Shown: positions 44,672 to 53,746 of the stretch, piece by piece
Layout of the letters: the number at the start of each line of letters is the position of its first letter
Position numbering within the stretch: position 1 is the stretch's first letter
Source: a virus
Lineage: Duplodnaviria; Caudoviricetes
DNA: 64,000 bases
Virus record (IMG/VR): IMGVR_UViG_3300021399_000118
Location: 56,916-120,915 of that record
Reading direction: 5' to 3' (one strand)
Position numbers and translations under genes: made by a program
The notes under the pieces: generated by a model
Databases searched by the model: none
Told to the model about the DNA's origin: nothing
The model's input: the letters and a program-made list of their open reading frames with translations, nothing else

Positions 44672-47600
44672 TTATTCCTGTGCCTTATTCCCTTTAATAA
44701 TTCTGTAGCTTCTGGCCCAGATATCAAATTCTCCAGGAATTGGCGTCCTGTTTCCATCCTTATAGATATATCTCGGGCTCTTATTAAACTTCAACATTTC
44801 CAGGCAATCTCCTTCTTCGAAAGGAGTAACGGCAAAGTCATCCTTTTTGAACCGGACAACACCGGAAGTCCCTCTCTGAACGGAGTAAAGATCCGCTTTG
44901 ACGCCGTATTTAGCGTCGATTGTTTTAATAAAATACAGGTTTGAAGGAGCTTTCGGATCTGTGCTCAGACAAAGTCCAACATTGAAGAACTCTGAGTTCA
45001 GCCGCTGGGTTATCGGCAATGGTTCCGGACCCAGGCTTTTCTCGTATTCCCGGCACGCTGCCAAACGCGCCTCGTAGGATTTTACTGTCTTGGTCAATTT
45101 CTGTTTTCCTTCAAAGAATTCATCATATACTTTCATCAGCTTGCCAGCCGGGCCGTAGGACGCAAAGTAGTCCAGTTCGATCAGAATCCTGATTTGTCTC
45201 GTGTCGAGGCAGGAGTTCATCTGAAGCTCGCGAAGAAGGTCTGTAAAGTTATCGAACGCCGGTACCTGTTTGGTAACAAGCTTCGGCGGCCGACCTTCAA
45301 GGATTGCCATATAGTCGTCGTCAAACTCTTCGTAGACGGTGACGGTTTTCTGTCCTATCTTGTATAGATCCTGGGCTGCTTTTCGGGACATATAGCGGAT
45401 GGAAGACAAGGACTGGCTGATTGTGCCATGTTCCTTATCCACCAGCCAATCACGGTTATCCTGCCCGAATCTCCCGGCTGTTAAGGTGATGTGTTTATAG
45501 CGTTTCATCTCTGCGATAATCGAAGAAATCTTATCCGTATTCTTCTTCTGATCGTAGAGCTTCAACATGGTAACATATAGTTCGTAGGGATAATGGACTT
45601 TCAGCCATGCGGCATAGAGAGAGTCGCAGGCCATCGAAAATGCGTGCGCGGCGCAAAACATATAGCTTGCCGCATTTTCTATAATTGTCCATACTTCTTC
45701 AACTACCTCGGAAGCCTTTTCTTCCGAAGCGTTTTCAGTTTCCTGAAGGTACTTCGTGAATCCTGTTTTAAATTTATCCTTAGCTGCAAGAACTTTGTCG
45801 ATCTTTTTCTTTTTAATCGCTTTTGTGGTCGCGTATGCTTCCGGTCCTGGGATACCAGCTGCCTTCAAGATCTGCAGAATCTGCTCATCATACAAGAGGA
45901 ACGAATCCGGAATCGCATCCGTCTTCAGAAGCTTGTCCAACGACGGGATCCCATATTCAAACGGAGTTCTTGTGATGAAAGTGTTCAGCATCGACTTGAA
46001 TCCCGGGCGGATACCCGCTATGAAGGCGGTCAACTGTTCCACGTTCTGCGGCTTATACTGCATACAACGTTCTGTTGACTTGGCTCTTTCCACCTGGTTC
46101 AGGCCCATCGTAAAGCCATTCGCGTAAAGATCCCAGACGGCTTTGTCGTTCTTGACGGCCGCAAGAAGCTCGTCGACGCTCATTACCGGCAGGCCAGCCA
46201 AAGCAAAAGCGTCTGCGATTACTTTAACTACATCTACTCTTAAGAAATCAGCCTTCAAGTAGTTGTAGCTATCTGCTGTCTTTCCGTCTATATACGCGGC
46301 ATACACTGCGTCTTTCGAGCCGGACTTGGATTTCACGCGGATTACACCGATCTCCCGGCGCAAATCTTTATCTGAAAGCAGATGGGCACAGGGATGCGGG
46401 CTGATTGACGTGACAATACCCTTATACTGTTTCGATTCTTCGATCAGCTCCAGATATTTCTCGTCCACATAGGACTCAATCTGAACATCGTCGTCCACGT
46501 CGTATTCAGGATCATCCGCGTTATTCTCCTTGGCATGTTTTACATCCAGCTCGTAGTTCTGGATCTGTTTTGCGATTACATTGGCTGTTTCGAAATCAAG
46601 TTCCCTGGCTCTCGCAAGAAGCTTGAAGGCAGATAAGGTCTTTGCCGTACCATAGGCGATCATGGGAAGGCAGCCCCATTCGCCCAGGATTTCCTTACCG
46701 GCTTTCTCAAACGCTTCTACGTTTGCCATGTTCAGATCCAGGTCCGGGAGTCCGTTGGCCAAACGATCTGCTGAGATGAATCTTTCCGGGTACATTTTCA
46801 CAGGACAATGCAGACGGTTTATAGACGAGAATCCCATAGCGAAGTTGGAAACAAAGGACGCTCCGGAGCCTCTGCCTGTCTTGGTGAGGATGCCTCCGTA
46901 TTCCTGTCCTTTCTCTACGACACGCTTCATGATTAAAGGATAGTCAGCCGTGCCAGTTGTCGTCATAGTTTCCAGTTCATGGTGGATCTCTTGCGCTTCT
47001 TCTTTTGTCGGCATTCCCGCCTTTTCAATGTATTCATTGCAGACGGTTTTCTTATAGAGAAGATTTCTCTTATCCTGCGTCATATCCGGATAGGGGTTTG
47101 GGATCTTCTTTTCGTTTGTGAAATGCACACCTTCAAAGTTCCGGAGAATCAATGTATTCTCCATCGCTTCCTCAATCTGGGCTTTATTCAGAACATTCTG
47201 GGCTTTCAGCATTTCATATGCTTCCTCAGCCGTCGGAAGATAAAGCAGGAATTCATCCTCAGTGCCGTAGGTAATCTTAGCGGAAAGCAGAAGCTCCCGA
47301 CGAAGCTCTTTCTCTTCCTTGTAGATATAGTGGCTGTCCGTTCCGTAGATCAGAGGCCATCTGTATTTCTTTGAAAGAGCAAGAACCTTTTCGTTGGTTT
47401 CTTTCTGAATCTGCTGAGGATGATGCTGGATTTCCAGATAAAAGTTTTCCCGAAAGATGTTGTGGAGATCATTCGCGAGGGACTCATATTCAGGATCCTT
47501 CATAATGCCGCCGACACAGGCTGTTGTACAGATAAAGTGCTTATAGTCCAGCCGGGAAAGAAGATCGAAATCCACCCGTGCATGATAGTAAAATCCTGTG

Positions 47601-47944
47601 AGATTCGCTTCAGAAAGGATTTCGTTTAACTGATAATATCCTTCCATGTCTTTGGCGATCAGGATCAGGTGGAAGTTTCGATTATCCTTTTCCTGGCGCT
47701 TCGGGACAAAATAAGCCTCAGCCGCAGCCAGCGGAGTCATTTTGAAGTTTTCGTCTGAATACTTCTTGGCCAGCTCAAACTGCTGCCAGACATTCGACCT
47801 GTTTCCATGCTCGGAAATACAGAGGACATGGTGTCCTCTTTCCTTATAAACCTTCGCATAATCCTGGATGGACATGGTCGAGTCCGGCTGAGTCAGGCAG
47901 TTTGAATAGGAGGTGTGGATATGATACGGTTCAAATTCAAGCAA
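44672..47944 (-). CDS. dnaE: DNA polymerase III alpha subunit (family C)
   Basis: PHP domain HIHTSYS...TDSHY, GRGSGAS, PDLDL, HPCAH, KADFL, YMFCAAHA. Confidence 0.92.
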   Translation of the reverse strand: MLEFEPYHIHTSYSNCLTQPDSTMSIQDYAKVYKERGHHVLCISEHGNRSNVWQQFELAKKYSDENFKMTPLAAAEAYFVPKRQEKDNRNFHLILIAKDMEGYYQLNEILSEANLTGFYYHARVDFDLLSRLDYKHFICTTACVGGIMKDPEYESLANDLHNIFRENFYLEIQHHPQQIQKETNEKVLALSKKYRWPLIYGTDSHYIYKEEKELRRELLLSAKITYGTEDEFLLYLPTAEEAYEMLKAQNVLNKAQIEEAMENTLILRNFEGVHFTNEKKIPNPYPDMTQDKRNLLYKKTVCNEYIEKAGMPTKEEAQEIHHELETMTTTGTADYPLIMKRVVEKGQEYGGILTKTGRGSGASFVSNFAMGFSSINRLHCPVKMYPERFISADRLANGLPDLDLNMANVEAFEKAGKEILGEWGCLPMIAYGTAKTLSAFKLLARARELDFETANVIAKQIQNYELDVKHAKENNADDPEYDVDDDVQIESYVDEKYLELIEESKQYKGIVTSISPHPCAHLLSDKDLRREIGVIRVKSKSGSKDAVYAAYIDGKTADSYNYLKADFLRVDVVKVIADAFALAGLPVMSVDELLAAVKNDKAVWDLYANGFTMGLNQVERAKSTERCMQYKPQNVEQLTAFIAGIRPGFKSMLNTFITRTPFEYGIPSLDKLLKTDAIPDSFLLYDEQILQILKAAGIPGPEAYATTKAIKKKKIDKVLAAKDKFKTGFTKYLQETENASEEKASEVVEEVWTIIENAASYMFCAAHAFSMACDSLYAAWLKVHYPYELYVTMLKLYDQKKNTDKISSIIAEMKRYKHITLTAGRFGQDNRDWLVDKEHGTISQSLSSIRYMSRKAAQDLYKIGQKTVTVYEEFDDDYMAILEGRPPKLVTKQVPAFDNFTDLLRELQMNSCLDTRQIRILIELDYFASYGPAGKLMKVYDEFFEGKQKLTKTVKSYEARLAACREYEKSLGPEPLPITQRLNSEFFNVGLCLSTDPKAPSNLYFIKTIDAKYGVKADLYSVQRGTSGVVRFKKDDFAVTPFEEGDCLEMLKFNKSPRYIYKDGNRTPIPGEFDIWARSYRIIKGNKAQE

Positions 47945-47963: not shown

Positions 47964-48446
47964 TTAGAAATCAAAACACGCGTTCTCTGTGCAGAAGAAG
48001 ACTCCGTCGCGGTCTTCGAAAATGTCGGCGGCAATATTCTGATAGAGCGTAGAAACATAACCGTTGGGATCGGCCAGGTTATCGTCGTAATACTGAGCGA
48101 CTTCCTTGGCGAAGCACATGTAGTCGAAAGTTCCGCCGCCTGGGGCAGGAACGCTGATCATGCGAGAGAACGCCCCGTTACCGTGGAAGGCATTGCAGAA
48201 CAGCTGGGCTGTTGTTTCTTTTTCGTTGGCAGGAATGACAACAATCTTCAGCGTGAAGCTACCGAATGTTTTCTCAGTCGGCATCAGTCGGGATAATGCG
48301 TCCGCTTTTACGGCATTTTCCACATAGATCTTGACGGTTCTCTCTTCGTCGGAATATTCAATCCGAACATCAGAATCTCTTTCAAACAGAACACGAATCT
48401 CGTTCACGAAATGAATCCACGGAGAAGTGATTTTCAGGTTTTCCAT
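47964..48446 (-). CDS. Conserved-looking hypothetical phage protein
   Basis: 160 aa, AAGGAG RBS; QYYDDNLADPNG. Confidence 0.6.
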   Translation of the reverse strand: MENLKITSPWIHFVNEIRVLFERDSDVRIEYSDEERTVKIYVENAVKADALSRLMPTEKTFGSFTLKIVVIPANEKETTAQLFCNAFHGNGAFSRMISVPAPGGGTFDYMCFAKEVAQYYDDNLADPNGYVSTLYQNIAADIFEDRDGVFFCTENACFDF

Positions 48447-48462: not shown

Positions 48463-48501
48463 AAATAAAAATAGTTCCGGTTTTTAACGAGACCGGAAAC
48501 T
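48463..48501 (-). terminator. Terminator closing the pentamer array
   Basis: AGTTTCCGGT...ACCGGAACT stem followed by ATTTTTATTT on the minus strand. Confidence 0.65.
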
Positions 48502-48552
48502 CGGGCTTAGTGGCTCTTCGCTGCTTTGCGAAACAGATCAGTACGATGCGAA

Positions 48553-49323
48553 CCTTGGCTGCCTCAACCGTCCTAACCGTGACGCGCCGTGACTCACCAT
48601 GGCTGCCAAAACACAGCAGACCCGTGCGATACATGACATACCTATGACTACCATGGCTGACAAAGCAGAACACAGCTATACATAACGGATCCAACCTTGA
48701 CTGCCTAAACGAAACTAGACTTTGCATTACACACCATAGCTGCCTAAGCGGACCTTAGCTTAACTTATCATTCCTTGCCATGACTGCCAAGACCTTACAT
48801 ACGGTTCCTTGCCTAACCTCGACTGCCTCAGCTATCCAGAACCTGACATGCCGCTCCTAGTCTTACCCCGACTGCCAGAACACAGCTATACAAACATGAC
48901 CTCGCCACGGCTGCCGCAATCTACCAAATCCTAATCCAACGAAACTCGCCCTGACTGCCGAACCAATCTGCGCCCTAACAAGCAATGCCGCACACTAACA
49001 AACCAAGGCTGCCTTAACAATGCACATCAAACGCTGACCAACCCCGGCTGCCAGACTATACCGCAACCTACCTGTACGAAGCACAACCCACCATGACTGC
49101 CGTAACGCAGCGCACCGCAACTCGACGCTCCTTAACTAGCCTTGACTGCCAAGCCACAAACACATCAATTCCTAACCAAGACTGCCTGACCGCACATCAA
49201 CAAAACATAACGTAACTTGCCTCGACTGCCAAACCATATCAAACAGCAACAGGACATAACTCACCCTGGCTGCCTAACCCGTACCAACCCTACTCTGCCC
49301 TCACTAACCGCACCAAGGCTGCC
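48553..49323 (-). repeat. Array of 18 GGCAGYC-NN-GG anchors separated by G(G/T)Y-NN pentamers; candidate guide-RNA array
   Basis: Anchor starts on + strand: 48553, 48597, 48651, 48695, 48734, 48778, 48817, 48866, 48905, 48949, 49003, 49042, 49091, 49140, 49176, 49220, 49264, 49313; 16 of 17 spacings are 39, 44, 49 or 54. Confidence 0.9.
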
Positions 49324-49381: not shown

Positions 49382-49897
49382 TCAGGCACCCAGGAAGTCG
49401 TTCATATCGTCGATAATCTTGGCAAGTTCATCCAGCCGACGGTACTTGGCGATGAAGCACCTGGCGTCGCGCTTTGCTGCTTCAAGCAGATTCGCCCGCC
49501 AGGTTTCATCCGTTAATGCTTCCATCAACGGAACATATAAATTTTTTCTCTCGTAAGTGGATTGAAAAGCCCTGTCCTGAATTTCTTCTTCCGGGATTTC
49601 CGGCTGAACATCCAGTTTAACTTCTCTTTCCTTATTGATGTCTGATTTGACAATCACGAGATTCCGAATGACATGCTTTGCCTGCTCAACACGATACTTT
49701 TCGCCGGCAATGCTGTCATCCCATTCAAACTCGTTGTGCATCGGCGCATCTACAGGCCTGCTGACATCAACCAAACCCTGAGGTGTCAGGCCTTCCTTTG
49801 TTTCGTGAAGCTGCTGGCACACAGCACCGGCAACTTCAGCTGAAACCTTATTGATGCCCTTTACTTTATAGTGATATTCATATGCTTGTGCTGACAT
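49382..49897 (-). CDS. Accessory protein directly upstream of the array
   Basis: LTPQGLVDVSRP..APMHNEFEWDDSIAGEKYRVEQA motif; function unknown. Confidence 0.65.
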   Translation of the reverse strand: MSAQAYEYHYKVKGINKVSAEVAGAVCQQLHETKEGLTPQGLVDVSRPVDAPMHNEFEWDDSIAGEKYRVEQAKHVIRNLVIVKSDINKEREVKLDVQPEIPEEEIQDRAFQSTYERKNLYVPLMEALTDETWRANLLEAAKRDARCFIAKYRRLDELAKIIDDMNDFLGA

Positions 49898-49919: not shown

Positions 49920-50201
49920 TCAGATTGTCACTGTTTTAGTTTGATATAATATGTTATCAATTTCAACACCTAGAACTTTTCCTTCAACTCTTGACGCAAG
50001 ATCTTTAAAAGCATCTTCTATTGTTTTCCCATGGCCGGAAACTTGCTCCAAGTCTTCATCGTTGACAATCCAGACGCTTTGAAAATCAACAACGAAATCA
50101 TTGTTTATATTTTTAATAATCTCGAAATATGGTTTTTCTTTATGCGGCAGTCCCTCAAATTCCAGCGTTAAAAGCTTGGTAGCAATTTTGTTAATATCCA
50201 T
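49920..50201 (-). CDS. Hypothetical AT-rich protein
   Basis: 93 aa; GHGKTIEDAF resembles a HicB-like N-terminal motif. Confidence 0.5.
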   Translation of the reverse strand: MDINKIATKLLTLEFEGLPHKEKPYFEIIKNINNDFVVDFQSVWIVNDEDLEQVSGHGKTIEDAFKDLASRVEGKVLGVEIDNILYQTKTVTI

Positions 50202-50204
50202 ATC

Positions 50205-50978
50205 TTAGCCCTCCGAGAGCACAACATGGTAAGTGCCAAACTCACCATCTTTCTCGATCCGCCATTCTCCCACGCCATTCATGAATCCGCTCATATCGAG
50301 AGCGTTGATCAGGTCTTCCATGGTGAACATGCCGGTCTTGATCAGACTCAGTTCCAGTTCGACCGCCCACTTGCGGAAGGACGGGCGATAGCGAAGATCC
50401 GCAGCCTTCTGAGGGCCAACCTTCACCATATCCTCAGACATTTCCGGCGGCTCCTCCAGCTCCAGGATCGCCAGCTCCTGAGAAGAACCGATATGCGTGC
50501 CGTTGACAGCGTTCACATGAAACAGCCGGGACATCAGCTTCATATTCCGAATCAGTCCCATGCTGTAACAGGCCATCACAGCGGACTTCTTGAACGCGAT
50601 CGTCGGGAACCCAAACTGGGCACCGTCTTCGATCGCCTTCTCGAAACGTGCGTGCTGCTCTTTCTCGGGAAGACCTCTGACTTCAGGCATGGGAGTCACC
50701 CAATAACCGGCCTCCACAAAGTCAGCAAAGGGATCGCGCATTTCATGTTCCTTGTTTTTCTTCTGCTGACGAGTCATCTGCTGACTCTCCAGAAGCTGCT
50801 TCTTTGCCTTCTGAGACCAGGCGTGAACCAGCAGCGGGCTGTCGCCTTCGATACGAACGCGGGCCTTTTCGATCGGCACTCTTTTGATTTCCACCCGGGT
50901 TGTCGCCTTTTCCGGGAACTCTTCGATCGTGGTTTCTCCGTTGGGGTTTTCGATTTCGACAGTAACTTTCTTAGCCAT
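50205..50978 (-). CDS. Cas7/RAMP-superfamily-like protein
   Basis: First strand RIEGDSPLLVH, FPTIAFKKSAV helix, RYRP..W, and Gly-rich loop GFMNGVGEWRIEKDGEFGTYHV at the C-terminus. Confidence 0.7.
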   Translation of the reverse strand: MAKKVTVEIENPNGETTIEEFPEKATTRVEIKRVPIEKARVRIEGDSPLLVHAWSQKAKKQLLESQQMTRQQKKNKEHEMRDPFADFVEAGYWVTPMPEVRGLPEKEQHARFEKAIEDGAQFGFPTIAFKKSAVMACYSMGLIRNMKLMSRLFHVNAVNGTHIGSSQELAILELEEPPEMSEDMVKVGPQKAADLRYRPSFRKWAVELELSLIKTGMFTMEDLINALDMSGFMNGVGEWRIEKDGEFGTYHVVLSEG

Positions 50979-51004: not shown

Positions 51005-51853
51005 TTAAATATTATTTTCGTAATAATAATCCTGTTCTTTATTTTTCTTCGGCAGAACAGGCTTGCCGTTGGAGCAGTATTTCCTCGCTCCACAGAGGTA
51101 TTGACAATAGAAGTCCTGCTTGCCTTCCGGAATTTCCTTGCATTCCAGCCAGTCAAGCACGGTACAGTCTTCTATTTTCTGAATGGTTTCCCCGGCCCAG
51201 GACATGGTTTCCTCGTAAGTCTTGAGGTCGAAGGGTCTTTCCGGCCGGATTCCTCCGGCGTTAAAAAGATGGAACATGAGACGCTTTGGATATTCCCCGA
51301 ACTTCATTTTGACGAACTGGGAATACATATACATCTGCATGTACATTTCATCCTGGGCTTTCTTGAAGGCGGATTCTGATTTGGACTTATGGTCGCAGAT
51401 GATCAGATCGCCGTTTGATTCATCCCGGATGATCAAGTCCACAATGCCGACAAAAGGCCTTGTCGAGCCGTCGGGCAAGGTGATTTCCGATGTGTATTTC
51501 TCTTCGGCCATAAGGATCTCGTAACCTTCGAACTCGTCAAAGCTTTCGATGAAATCCAGACCCTGCTGGTATGCTTTCTGGGCATAGCCCTTGGAGGCCA
51601 GCATTCTCGGCCAGGCCGTCAGGACAGAATCGCCATATCTTCGCTCGTACTCGAGGAGCATATCCTCTTTCGAAAGGAGGCCTTTGGCCCACTCGTCCAG
51701 GAGGTTATGGATCAGAGATCCTCTTTCCGCGAAGGCGTTGGATTGCTCCTCTTCGATTCCTTCAATACGCTTTAAGTAAAAGCCGTACTTGCATTCATCG
51801 AAAGACTGGAGCTGACTGTAAGAGTAAACATGATTATCAGATAAGAGGCTCAA
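51005..51853 (-). CDS. PD-(D/E)xK exonuclease, Cas4/AddB-like with 4 Cys
   Basis: YSYSQL..FDEC, GSLIH, GIVDLI, ICDHKS, QMYMY, CQYLC...C. Confidence 0.8.
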   Translation of the reverse strand: MSLLSDNHVYSYSQLQSFDECKYGFYLKRIEGIEEEQSNAFAERGSLIHNLLDEWAKGLLSKEDMLLEYERRYGDSVLTAWPRMLASKGYAQKAYQQGLDFIESFDEFEGYEILMAEEKYTSEITLPDGSTRPFVGIVDLIIRDESNGDLIICDHKSKSESAFKKAQDEMYMQMYMYSQFVKMKFGEYPKRLMFHLFNAGGIRPERPFDLKTYEETMSWAGETIQKIEDCTVLDWLECKEIPEGKQDFYCQYLCGARKYCSNGKPVLPKKNKEQDYYYENNI

Positions 51854-51883
51854 GGTACATCACTCTCCTTTATGTTGTTTTTC

Positions 51884-53746
51884 TCAGAAGGGCTGAGTCC
51901 TGGAAACACCGTCGTCAAGCTTAAACTCTTCCAGCACGCAGGCCTGGTTTTCCGGAAGCTTGACACCATCATGATTCCAGCTATATACAATCCTGTCGCC
52001 GACGGAAGCCTGAGAGATTCTCCGGTTGGCAGGATCGTAAACGGTGGGGATGAAGCCGGTAACACCGAAGTCCCGGTTCTTGGTTACCCGGATTCCCTTG
52101 GGCTCCTTTTCCACATTCAGAACGTTATCCGCCAGGTTGCTGATGGCGGAGGAGCCGGAGATGGAATCGTTTGTGAACTGCTGGTCCGCCTTTTCCTTTC
52201 TCGGATGGGCAACCATGATCACATGGGCTTTATATTTACCGGCAAAGGCCTTCAGCTGGGCCGTGAACCTTGCCTGGGCCTTGTTCTCTTCGTCCGGAGA
52301 GCAAAGGGCTGACATCAGATTGTCTACGAGGAAAAGCTTGCAGCCATACCGGCGGGCGCAGGCTTCAAAGACCTTCATAATGGAGTCGGTCTGGTTTGAA
52401 TCCTGCACGATGGAGTTATCGTAAAGATAGAACTTCCCTGCCAGCCACTGCTTGATGCGCCGCTGGATGTCGTCTTCCACGTAGCAGATGTTCTTGCCGG
52501 AACGAACGTCGGTTTTATAGGCGATATATTTGCTCTCCGTTGCCTGAAGCATAATCCACTCCAGGAACTTATAAGCAGAGAGCTCACCTGAATAGGCGCA
52601 CACATTGTATCCCTGATCAATCGCGGAAAGCAGGATAGGGCCGGAAAGCGTGGACTTACCCTCGGCTCTTTTACCCGACACAATAGTTACACCGCCTTCG
52701 CTCAGGCCGCCGATCATGTTATCCAATGCTGGAATGCGGGTCATAATTCTCGGAACTGTCGTAGGATCGATAAACGGGATCGTTGCAAGATCCAGGACTC
52801 CGCGAATGGGAGCGGGCTCGCAGCTATCAATGATCTGCTTCAAGGCTTCAGGCCCGTAACACATCAGGATCTCGTTGGCATCCTTACAGGGGCGGTTCTT
52901 GTCCTCGCCGTCCCAGATGAACTCCGGATATTCCTGCGGGATCATGCAGCGGTCTTCCTTAAGCCTTTTGGACAAGGTAGAGACCATCTCAAGCCCGGCT
53001 TCATCGTTATCTCCGAAAAGAATAATCTGGTTGAACTGGTCCAGCCATTCCCAGCAAGTATCCACCCAGTTCATGTCGCTACAGCCGGAAGGAACAGAAA
53101 CAACGTTGGACACGCCAGCTTCGTAGATCGCCAGAGCGTCCATTTCTCCTTCGGTGATAATCAAAGGACGGTTAAAGGAAGTCATATCCATTCCGAAAAG
53201 GATGGACTCAGTATCCGGCAGCCGCCATTCTTTCGGCCCACTTTCCTTTTTGTAAGGAGCCGGTTTACGGAACTTGACAAAGATCAGTTCATTGTTCCGA
53301 TAAAACGGGAAAACAATATTTCCTTTGTCGTCGGAGGAGATGTTCCAATCCCTCAAAGTTTCCTCGGAAATGCTCCGGGTTGCACAATAGGTGATGATTT
53401 CTTCAGTCAGAGGCTGCAGCATTTCAGGATTAGGCCGTACATACTGCTTCTTCTTTGCGACACTTTGTTTGGGCAGGGAGAATCCGACCGGGGCGTCTTC
53501 CCCGAAGAAATCGCACAGCTCCCGGAAGGAGCCTTCCCTCTTGCCGTTAATCCCTGGACAGCCGCCGCGCTTGCAGTTCCACGCACCGGAGACCACATTG
53601 ATCGCAAAGGTATCTCTGTCTCCGTGCTCTCCTCCCCCGCAGATCGGGCAAACTCCACGAACCTTCAATTCGTTTCCGATAACACGATATTCATCGAATT
53701 TAAACTTGTCAGCCAGTCTGACGACGGCTGTTTTCATTGCGTCCAT
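51884..53746 (-). CDS. Primase-helicase, T7 gp4/Twinkle-like
   Basis: CPIC..C Zn finger, TOPRIM ITEGEMDA and GDND, Walker A GKRAEGKS, LVDNL, VAHPRK. Confidence 0.9.
   Translation of the reverse strand: MDAMKTAVVRLADKFKFDEYRVIGNELKVRGVCPICGGGEHGDRDTFAINVVSGAWNCKRGGCPGINGKREGSFRELCDFFGEDAPVGFSLPKQSVAKKKQYVRPNPEMLQPLTEEIITYCATRSISEETLRDWNISSDDKGNIVFPFYRNNELIFVKFRKPAPYKKESGPKEWRLPDTESILFGMDMTSFNRPLIITEGEMDALAIYEAGVSNVVSVPSGCSDMNWVDTCWEWLDQFNQIILFGDNDEAGLEMVSTLSKRLKEDRCMIPQEYPEFIWDGEDKNRPCKDANEILMCYGPEALKQIIDSCEPAPIRGVLDLATIPFIDPTTVPRIMTRIPALDNMIGGLSEGGVTIVSGKRAEGKSTLSGPILLSAIDQGYNVCAYSGELSAYKFLEWIMLQATESKYIAYKTDVRSGKNICYVEDDIQRRIKQWLAGKFYLYDNSIVQDSNQTDSIMKVFEACARRYGCKLFLVDNLMSALCSPDEENKAQARFTAQLKAFAGKYKAHVIMVAHPRKEKADQQFTNDSISGSSAISNLADNVLNVEKEPKGIRVTKNRDFGVTGFIPTVYDPANRRISQASVGDRIVYSWNHDGVKLPENQACVLEEFKLDDGVSRTQPF

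What the first reader, a model, noticed from the sequence alone, without database searches (positions are those of the whole stretch)
48553..49323. Array unit lengths are quantised as 9+5n, with one broken unit
Seen: successive anchor spacings are 44, 54, 44, 39, 44, 39, 49, 39, 44, 54, 39, 49, 49, 36, 44, 44, 49. Sixteen of 17 equal 9+5n (n=6-9). The exception (49151-49186, 36 nt) reads GGTTA GGAAT TGATG TGTTT GT GGCTT, as if one 3-nt scaffold triplet had been deleted while its NN was kept. The units are not copies of one another, so this is not a simple minisatellite. Period 5 also rules out codon structure. Inference: selection acts on a 5-nt register, and guides diversify by pentamer gain or loss and NN substitution rather than by spacer acquisition.
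Basis: seen in the sequence. Interest (0 to 1): 0.8.

Follow-up and report, generated by a model that had tools for sequence, protein, structure and literature searches.

The report
Phage VIPR guide-RNA array, tail-less type
The 5-base-periodic array is the guide-RNA array of a phage VIPR system, a CRISPR-related RNA-guided DNA silencer first described in 2026 preprints. Its "quantised" unit lengths are simply guides made of 7-10 five-base repeats joined by a four-base GGCA junction, so it is a real and tidy example of a kind that is already known.

Summary
On the minus strand, 48524-49323 is one run of 145 pentamers of form G-[G/T]-[C/T]-N-N. It is interrupted 16 times by a 4-mer (15 GGCA, 1 GTCA). 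So 9+5n is really 4+5m, with 7-10 pentamers per guide.

The array is a VIPR vrRNA array (bioRxiv 10.64898/2026.04.26.720920), of the tail-less "staggered" architecture shown in that paper's Fig. S18.
- The upstream 257-aa gene has a Csm3/Cas7 (RAMP) fold and weak sequence homology to the characterised SUSP1 Vipr.
- The 171-aa gene is a conserved partner (vap-like).
- The trio travels together in 43 of 47 viral loci.

One guide (49009-48960), decoded with the published 1-nt-skip rule, matches exactly in at least 117 viral contigs and at least 120 bacterial species genomes. 232 of these 237 hits lie antisense to codons E-K-A-L-N-I-A-L-N-K of ParB-N/DNA-methyltransferase genes, with the skipped base at the wobble position.

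- Orthologous guides in a close relative keep their length.
- Substitutions are not concentrated at NN.
- The arrays differ by whole-guide turnover.
- The "broken" unit is conserved in all three related contigs examined.

This scan has noted VIPR arrays before, in at least 121 other genomes. Verdict: new member of a known kind.

The parts
48524..49323 (-). vrRNA array: about 18 guides, each made of 7-10 pentamers G-[G/T]-[C/T]-N-N and closed by the 4-mer GGCA. In the 16 regular guides the first pentamer is always G-Y-C or G-Y-T and the second is always G-G-Y.
   Evidence: The same grammar is seen in about 40 related arrays. The parser recovers the four published SUSP1 vrRNAs as a positive control.
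50205..50978 (-). vipr: 257-aa RAMP (Cas7/Csm3-like) protein with the C-terminal glycine-rich loop GVGEWR.
   Evidence: AF2 pLDDT 88.5. The top Foldseek hits (ranks 1-12 of those listed) are Csm or type VII CRISPR effector subunit chains, best E 2.4e-5. VIA Z 10.7 and 10.4 to Csm3. BLASTP E 6e-11 to the SUSP1 195-aa protein. Present beside the array in 43 of 47 loci.
49382..49897 (-). vap-like accessory gene: 171 aa, phrog_15946, with a possible winged-helix-like N-terminal half plus a C-terminal helical hairpin.
   Evidence: Its homologues almost always sit next to a pentamer array on the same strand. No Pfam or PDB sequence hit. Only weak WH-like fold matches, Z about 5. Not related to SUSP1 vap1.
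48956..49009 (-). Guide with a decoded target: 10 pentamers whose NN read TT-TT-AG-GC-AT-TT-AG-GC-TT-TC, followed by GGCA.
   Evidence: With a 1-nt skip it has at least 117 exact hits in IMG/VR and at least 120 in species genomes. 232 of 237 are antisense to EKALNIALNK in ParB_N + N6_N4_Mtase genes. The guide is conserved in L057.
49098..49146 (-). Guide with a possible second target (tail-fibre motif).
   Evidence: 9 exact IMG/VR hits, 7 of them in the same in-frame motif SAKYNADAAAT of tail-fibre genes. The motif is Ala-rich, so this is only suggestive.
49147..49182 (-). Best parsed as 4 pentamers, two 6-nt units and GGCA.
   Evidence: Conserved with its irregularity in L057, L058 and L059. 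The two differences between copies fall at scaffold position 2 under this parse. No target was found.
49920..50201 (-). 93-aa ORF between vipr and vap. It is a variable insert, not a core part of the system.
   Evidence: Present in L010, L058 and L059 but absent in L057 and L009. No family hit.
48470..48500 (-). Weak terminator-like hairpin plus U-run after the array.
   Evidence: Read from the sequence. The fold is not better than shuffles, and the terminator scan did not call it.

Best explanation
This is a VIPR (Viral Interference Programmable Repeat) locus: vipr (50205-50978), a vap-like partner (49382-49897) and a downstream array of about 18 vrRNA guides (48524-49323), all on the minus strand.

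Mechanism, taken from the published type II system and inferred here: the array is transcribed with the operon, and one Vipr protomer binds each pentamer. The G-K-Y bases are sequestered by the protein, and the two N bases are presented for pairing. The filament then recognises double-stranded DNA in which each NN pair is followed by one skipped base, and silences it.

The 4-nt GGCA junction shifts the register by -1, which the preprint describes as a 1-nt overlap of neighbouring guides. I infer that this ends one filament or guide and starts the next. That is why junction-to-junction lengths are 4+5m.

At least one guide is aimed at a conserved ParB-N/DNA-methyltransferase motif carried by many Bacillota prophages and phages, and absent from this phage. 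The likely role is therefore silencing rival mobile elements.

Shown here: the array grammar, the RAMP fold, the conserved three-part cassette, and the skip-rule match. Inferred: transcription, processing at GGCA, filament formation and silencing.
For: - Array grammar: 145 pentamers, 16 four-mers (15 GGCA, 1 GTCA) and one 6-mer. Scaffold positions carry information while NN do not.
- The same grammar sits next to homologues of the 171-aa gene in about 44 of 47 IMG/VR loci, and homologues of the 257-aa gene are present in 43 of 47. No replication gene is co-conserved.
- The 257-aa protein has a RAMP fold: the top Foldseek hits are CRISPR effector subunit chains (Csm, type VII), VIA Z 10.7 and 10.4 to Csm3. 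It has a G-loop GxGEWR. tblastn and BLASTP link it to the SUSP1 Vipr gene, whose four published vrRNAs my parser recovers blind.
- Skip rule: the 49009 guide has at least 117 viral and at least 120 genome exact matches, 232 of 237 in one protein motif with the skip at the wobble position. Two other 18-20-nt guide patterns gave 0 hits and one gave 1, so chance expectation is below about 1. In the 1.09 Mb of the 117 viral loci, skip 0 or skip 2 gives no match with up to 2 mismatches.
- There is no self-target, and no ParB-MTase gene in the phage's own 121-kb record.
- A distant VIPR array (L039) carries the sense-strand version of the same motif, 18 of 18.
- The array RNA has no structure beyond shuffles, z = -0.15.
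- Literature: 10.64898/2026.04.26.720920 and 10.64898/2026.04.26.720927.
Against: - No expression, processing or binding data exist for this locus. The preprint itself did not confirm the staggered architecture by sRNA-seq.
- The second scaffold base is relaxed here (G 38%, T 37%, C 17%), whereas published structures show specific contacts to G2.
- There is no 3' tail or pseudoknot, and the partner gene is unrelated to SUSP1 vap1.
- Exact-match searches found a convincing target for only 1 guide and a suggestive one for another. Four more were searched in public collections without result, and 11 were not searched there.
- The guides are shorter (7-10 repeats) than the published 9-16.
Confidence: 0.9

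Rival explanations
1. The array is a replication origin or iteron array bound by the 171-aa protein, since it sits inside the replication module.
For: It lies between primase-helicase/exonuclease genes and DNA polymerase III alpha. It has strong strand asymmetry. The 171-aa protein may be winged-helix-like.
Against: In 47 related loci the array travels with the RAMP gene and the 171-aa gene, and never with the replication genes. The variable dinucleotides of one guide spell a foreign gene motif exactly. Five-bp units broken by a -1 shift do not resemble known iterons.
Confidence: 0.02
2. The array is a protein-titrating or regulatory RNA (like a TRAP or CsrA sponge). Its triplets bind an oligomeric RNA-binding protein, and NN carry no meaning.
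For: Conserved triplets separated by 2-nt spacers recall TRAP sites (own knowledge). The RNA is unstructured.
Against: NN are informative: one guide has 20 of 20 matches to a conserved gene motif in hundreds of genomes, and these NN are preserved between relatives while scaffold bases drift. The partner protein is a RAMP homologous to a characterised guide-binding protein.
Confidence: 0.03
3. The locus is a decaying or inactive VIPR remnant. The relaxed second G and the irregular unit would be signs of erosion.
For: G2 is only 38% G. One guide is irregular and one junction is GTCA.
Against: Both ORFs are intact and fold with high confidence. The relaxed scaffold is shared by the whole clade (window, L009, L010, L051, L055). 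The first two pentamers of all 16 regular guides keep a strict frame. Guides and the irregular unit are conserved between relatives.
Confidence: 0.05

Closest known systems
VIPR systems, 'staggered vrRNA array' architecture (bioRxiv 10.64898/2026.04.26.720920, Fig. S18 legend)
   Same: A phage-borne lone RAMP protein plus an accessory gene. Guides are built of pentamers with a conserved triplet and a variable NN. Neighbouring guides abut with a 1-nt overlap, seen here as GGCA|G, a 4-nt unit. There is no structured tail between guides. The 1-nt-skip code has the skip at codon wobble positions.
   Different: The type assignment (I-VII) could not be made because the supplementary tables are not held. 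The scaffold here is G-K-Y rather than GGY. The paper did not confirm this architecture by sRNA-seq. The main texts of the two preprints I searched for the terms do not mention the ParB-N/methyltransferase target.
Type II VIPR of Escherichia phage SUSP1 (Vipr, vap1, four vrRNAs; structures in 10.64898/2026.04.26.720927)
   Same: The Vipr C-terminal region, including the G-loop GVG(D/E)WR, aligns at 38% identity over 74 aa. The operon order is vipr, accessory gene, downstream guides. The pentamer grammar is the same.
   Different: SUSP1 guides are about 100 nt with 11-16 strict GGY repeats, each followed by a roughly 60-nt tail. The window has 18 tail-less guides of 7-10 repeats. The accessory genes are unrelated. 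The window's Vipr is longer (257 vs 195 aa).
Class 1 CRISPR-Cas crRNA/Cas7 backbones
   Same: A RAMP fold, periodic protein binding along a guide, and periodic interruption of guide-target pairing.
   Different: There are no identical repeats or contiguous spacers. No homologue of any other window gene I tested is co-conserved with the cassette; cas1 and cas2 were not searched for specifically. The period is 5 with only 2 pairing bases, not 6 with 5.

Membership tests
VIPR system | A stand-alone RAMP-fold protein (RRM core, glycine-rich loop, thumb) encoded next to the array, outside a CRISPR locus | tested here: met
   The top Foldseek hits are CRISPR effector subunit chains (Csm, type VII), E down to 2.4e-5. 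VIA Z 10.7 (rmsd 4.3, 154 aligned) and 10.4 to Csm3. Invariant G-loop glycines and GEWR. No cas-like neighbours conserved.
VIPR system | Sequence relationship to a characterised Vipr | tested here: met
   tblastn hits Felixounavirus and SUSP1 genes at E 5e-4 to 8e-4. Pairwise BLASTP to the SUSP1 195-aa protein gives E 6e-11, 38% over 74 aa. The match is weak and C-terminal only.
VIPR system | Non-coding tandem pentamers with a conserved GGY (or related) triplet alternating with a hypervariable NN | tested here: met
   145 pentamers; G1 90%, position 2 G/T, position 3 T/C, NN about 0.1 bit. The variant consensus G-K-Y is a 'related consensus'.
VIPR system | NN dinucleotides match natural DNA targets with one skipped base per repeat, and not with other skips | tested here: met
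   One guide has at least 237 exact matches in one gene motif. Skip 0 and skip 2 give none in the 1.09 Mb of viral loci. Other guides gave 0-1 hits. Only 1 of 17 guides is convincingly decoded.
VIPR system | No self-targeting of the source genome | tested here: met
   Best skip-1 scores in the 121-kb record are at chance level, the same as skip 0 and 2. The ParB-MTase guide scores 14 of 20 at best, and no homologous gene is present.
VIPR system | A conserved accessory (vap) gene | tested here: met
   A 171-aa homologue is adjacent in all 47 loci by construction, with the RAMP gene alongside in 43. Whether it is one of vap1-6 is unknown.
VIPR system | Guides are transcribed, processed and co-purify with Vipr; the complex binds or silences DNA | not testable with these tools
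   No expression or biochemical data. Promoter and terminator scans are uninformative.
VIPR type II (SUSP1-like) | Each vrRNA ends in an invariant structured 3' tail (pseudoknot) | tested here: not met
   Guides abut through GGCA with no spacer. The array folds no better than shuffles. SUSP1 tails are visible in the control.
VIPR type II (SUSP1-like) | vap1 accessory protein | tested here: not met
   hhalign of the 171-aa family against SUSP1 vap1 gives probability 0.1.
CRISPR array | Near-identical direct repeats separating unique contiguous spacers, with cas1/cas2 nearby | tested here: not met
   TRF finds no repeat. The only constant element is a 4-7-nt junction. No adaptation genes are conserved nearby.

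The most novel reading that the evidence does not exclude
This clade may represent a VIPR type not yet experimentally characterised, with four distinctive features.
- Guide boundaries are set purely by a -1 register slip (GGCA), with no tail or ribozyme.
- Only the first two repeats keep a strict scaffold (G-Y-C, then G-G-Y), possibly a nucleation site, while later repeats tolerate G-T-Y.
- A conserved guide contains two 6-nt units.
- Distant VIPRs have converged, on opposite strands, on one ParB-N/DNA-methyltransferase motif of Bacillota prophages. This suggests VIPRs are used to switch off a rival's DNA-modification gene.
Probability: 0.35. Interest if true: 0.5.

Novelty: new member of a known kind. 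Interest (0 to 1): 0.33.

Why it matters
It shows that the odd "9+5n" quantisation is the signature of a recently described RNA-guided system, not a new phenomenon. It also gives a clean natural example of the least-studied VIPR architecture: tail-less, abutting guides.

The decoded ParB-N/methyltransferase target is hit by two unrelated arrays on opposite strands and is spread over hundreds of Bacillota (pro)phages. That makes it a concrete, testable case of a broad-spectrum guide that reads protein-level conservation through the wobble skip.

The conserved irregular guide and the strict 5' frame are handles for asking how guide ends are defined without a tail.

Tried and rejected
- Before finding the literature I considered a TRAP/CsrA-type sponge, a primase-site or origin array, two-tier G-quadruplexes and a terminase pac site. 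I dropped these once the cassette proved mobile with a RAMP gene and the NN code matched a foreign gene.
- Rfam gave only sub-threshold noise.
- blastn of the locus against cultured phages gave no match.
- The 171-aa protein had no significant Pfam or PDB sequence hit and no significant Foldseek hit to PDB. VIA-wide matches were only at Z about 5 to winged-helix domains and helical hairpins, which is inconclusive.
- Target scans with exact matching gave the following. Guide 48657 had 0 hits in viral and metagenome contigs. Guide 49097 had 0 viral hits and 12 heterogeneous, chance-like metagenome hits. Guide 48872 had 0. Guide 49319 had 1 hit in no open frame.
- No other window guide matched the 1.09 Mb around the 117 viral ParB-MTase hits above the skip-0 and skip-2 controls.
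- Four decodings of the irregular guide found nothing meaningful in 2.5 Mb of local sequence.
- A first attempt at the all-arrays target scan timed out and was rerun on a smaller database.
- Supplementary tables of the preprint are not held, so the VIPR type could not be assigned.

Full report
**Observation.** The + strand between 48553 and 49323 carries 18 anchors GRCTGCC (one is GGCTGAC). Sixteen of 17 are 4 mod 5, with a binomial chance of 9e-11. On the minus strand, which is the sense of all flanking genes, the body is 5-periodic. One position is G in 103 of 116 units; the next is G/T and the next T/C. The other two positions are nearly uninformative. G autocorrelation peaks at every multiple of 5, and no other part of the window behaves this way. 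Tandem Repeats Finder sees nothing, no long ORF crosses the region, and Rfam gives only noise.

**Anatomy.** A five-state Viterbi parse with free phase jumps gives one continuous array, 48524-49320 on the minus strand. It contains 145 pentamers G-K-Y-N-N, 16 four-mers (15 GGCA, 1 GTCA) and a single 6-mer. In the 16 regular guides the first pentamer is always G-[C/T]-[C/T] (15 of 16 end in C) and the second is always G-G-Y. Later pentamers relax to G-K-Y. The array RNA folds no better than shuffles, z = -0.15.

**Context.** All neighbouring genes are on the minus strand. In order they are: primase-helicase; a PD-(D/E)XK exonuclease; a 257-aa protein (phrog_4652); a 93-aa ORF; a 171-aa protein (phrog_15946); the array; a 160-aa protein; and DNA polymerase III alpha. 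The record is a 120.9-kb IMG/VR virus contig, and the array is unique in it.

**Comparative evidence.**
- The 171-aa protein brought in 47 viral loci. Nearly all carry a G-period-5 tract on the same strand, directly upstream or downstream of the gene.
- The only frequent non-pentamer unit in these arrays is GGCA. Runs between junctions are 7-14 pentamers, with a mode of 10.
- Over 40 non-redundant arrays there are 2326 pentamers, 189 four-mers and 10 other units. Junction distances are 4 mod 5 in 119 of 136.
- A homologue of the 257-aa protein is present in 43 of 47 loci, whereas none of the replication genes is. The unit of inheritance is therefore a two-gene-plus-array cassette.

**Proteins.**
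- The 257-aa protein models confidently (pLDDT 88.5). The top Foldseek hits are Csm and type VII CRISPR effector subunit chains, with best E 2.4e-5. VIA-align gives Z 10.7 and 10.4 to Csm3, followed by Cmr subunits, gRAMP, type IV/I Cas7 and Cas6.
- Its family has an invariant glycine-rich C-terminal loop, GGFxxGxGEWRPEKDG.
- tblastn finds the C-terminal 73 residues in Felixounavirus-like phages, including Escherichia phage SUSP1. Pairwise BLASTP against the SUSP1 195-aa protein gives E 6e-11 and aligns GVGEWR with GVGDWR.
- The 171-aa protein has no Pfam, PDB-sequence or Foldseek match and only Z about 5 resemblances to winged-helix domains. It is unrelated to the SUSP1 accessory protein.

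**Literature.** A full-text search for pentanucleotide repeats in phage non-coding RNA led to bioRxiv 10.64898/2026.04.26.720920. That preprint describes VIPR systems as follows.
- A phage-borne ancestral RAMP (Vipr), an accessory vap gene, and vrRNAs made of 9-16 YNNGG repeats.
- The NN pair with double-stranded DNA while every third target base is skipped, usually the codon wobble position.
- Seven types exist, with related consensus repeats. Array architectures include "staggered arrays with overlapping vrRNAs" in which neighbouring guides overlap by 1 nt. The paper does not list this architecture among those confirmed by sRNA-seq.

The companion structural preprint, 10.64898/2026.04.26.720927, shows one Vipr per repeat. 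G1, G2 and Y3 are held by the protein (the G-loop D-W-R among the contacts) and NN are presented for pairing. A third preprint covers competition with satellites. The GGCA|G junction here is exactly a 1-nt overlap of two 5-nt registers. As a positive control, my parser run blind on the SUSP1 locus returns its four published vrRNAs, one upstream and three downstream, each followed by a tail.

**Testing the code.** I decoded each regular guide as NN-x-NN-x and so on.

The 10-repeat guide at 49009-48960 gave at least 117 exact matches in IMG/VR and at least 120 in one-per-species bacterial genomes.
- 232 of 237 matches are antisense to codons E-K-A-L-N-I-A-L-N-K followed by ..G.W. The skipped base varies freely at the wobble position.
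- The genes are ParB_N + N6_N4 DNA methyltransferase fusions, phrog_498.
- The genome hits are overwhelmingly Bacillota, for example Lachnospiraceae, Oscillospiraceae, Clostridium and Bacillus.

Controls for this match were as follows.
- Three other 18-20-nt guide patterns gave 0, 0 and 1 viral hits, and a fourth gave 0.
- In the 1.09 Mb of the 117 viral loci, skip 0 or skip 2 gives no match with up to 2 mismatches.
- The match stops at the GGCA junction on the 3' side and starts with the first pentamer, which supports the junction as the guide boundary.
- The phage's own record has no ParB-MTase homologue and no above-chance self-match.
- A distant array (L039, partner protein 27% identical) has a guide spelling the same motif in the sense orientation, 18 of 18, and L040 has 16 of 18. 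Two lineages therefore target the same motif on opposite strands, as expected for DNA targeting.

A second guide (49146) has 9 exact viral hits, 7 of them in one in-frame tail-fibre motif. That motif is Ala-rich, so I rate this only as suggestive.

L057, a syntenic contig with the partner protein 85% identical, has 18 guides.
- Seven are collinear orthologues of window guides, and all keep the same length. Ten window guides have no counterpart.
- In the regular orthologues, substitutions by pentamer position 1-5 are 2, 7, 6, 3, 2 of 51 each. That is 13/102 at the K/Y positions against 5/102 at NN, Fisher p = 0.08.
- Retained guides therefore conserve NN at least as well as the degenerate scaffold positions, and arrays change mainly by whole-guide turnover.
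- Arrays of more distant relatives (L009, L010) share no guide with the window at 75% identity or more.
- The 36-nt unit is conserved in L057, L058 and L059. Its two variable sites fall at scaffold position 2 if it is parsed as four pentamers plus two 6-nt units. It is a maintained irregular guide, not a recent deletion. I found no target for it.

**Verdict.** It is a VIPR locus of the tail-less, staggered architecture, distinct from the characterised type II system in four ways:
- it has no 3' tail;
- its accessory gene is different;
- the second scaffold base is relaxed;
- its guides are shorter.

The kind was published as preprints in April-October 2026. This scan has already noted such arrays in at least 121 other genomes. 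One earlier claim about methyltransferase-directed guides was later partly withdrawn, which is why I ran the breadth and skip controls above. The locus is a new member of a known kind. The ParB-N/methyltransferase target, the convergent opposite-strand guide, the strict 5' frame and the conserved irregular guide are the details worth following up.

Noticed in passing
L039:3051-3549 (and L040): A distant VIPR array carries a guide whose NN are the exact reverse-complement code of 9 of the 10 dinucleotides of the window's ParB-MTase guide, so it targets the same motif on the other strand. Its closing junction is GGAA rather than GGCA.
   Followed up: partly
L050 and L049 arrays: Some related arrays use a different third scaffold base: GGA-NN in L050 (A 90%), and a mixed base in L049. 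This suggests co-variation with the Vipr pocket that normally excludes purines.
   Followed up: no
L057:4018-4110: The close relative has its own irregular guide of 43 nt containing a 3-nt unit, and a long guide of 13 pentamers. Occasional off-register units are therefore tolerated in this clade.
   Followed up: no
window 49920-50201 (-): A 93-aa ORF with no family hit sits between vipr and the partner gene here, in L010 and in L058/L059, but is missing in L057 and L009. It looks like a variable insert inside the operon.
   Followed up: partly
window 47964-48446 (-): A 160-aa protein directly after the array has no Pfam or PHROG family and only one viral relative (L056). It is syntenic in L057, so it belongs to the replication module and not to the VIPR cassette.
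   Followed up: partly
window 44672-47944 and 51005-53746 (-): The phage encodes its own DNA polymerase III alpha (PHP, NTPase and finger domains), a primase-helicase and a PD-(D/E)XK exonuclease. The VIPR cassette is inserted in the middle of this replication module.
   Followed up: no
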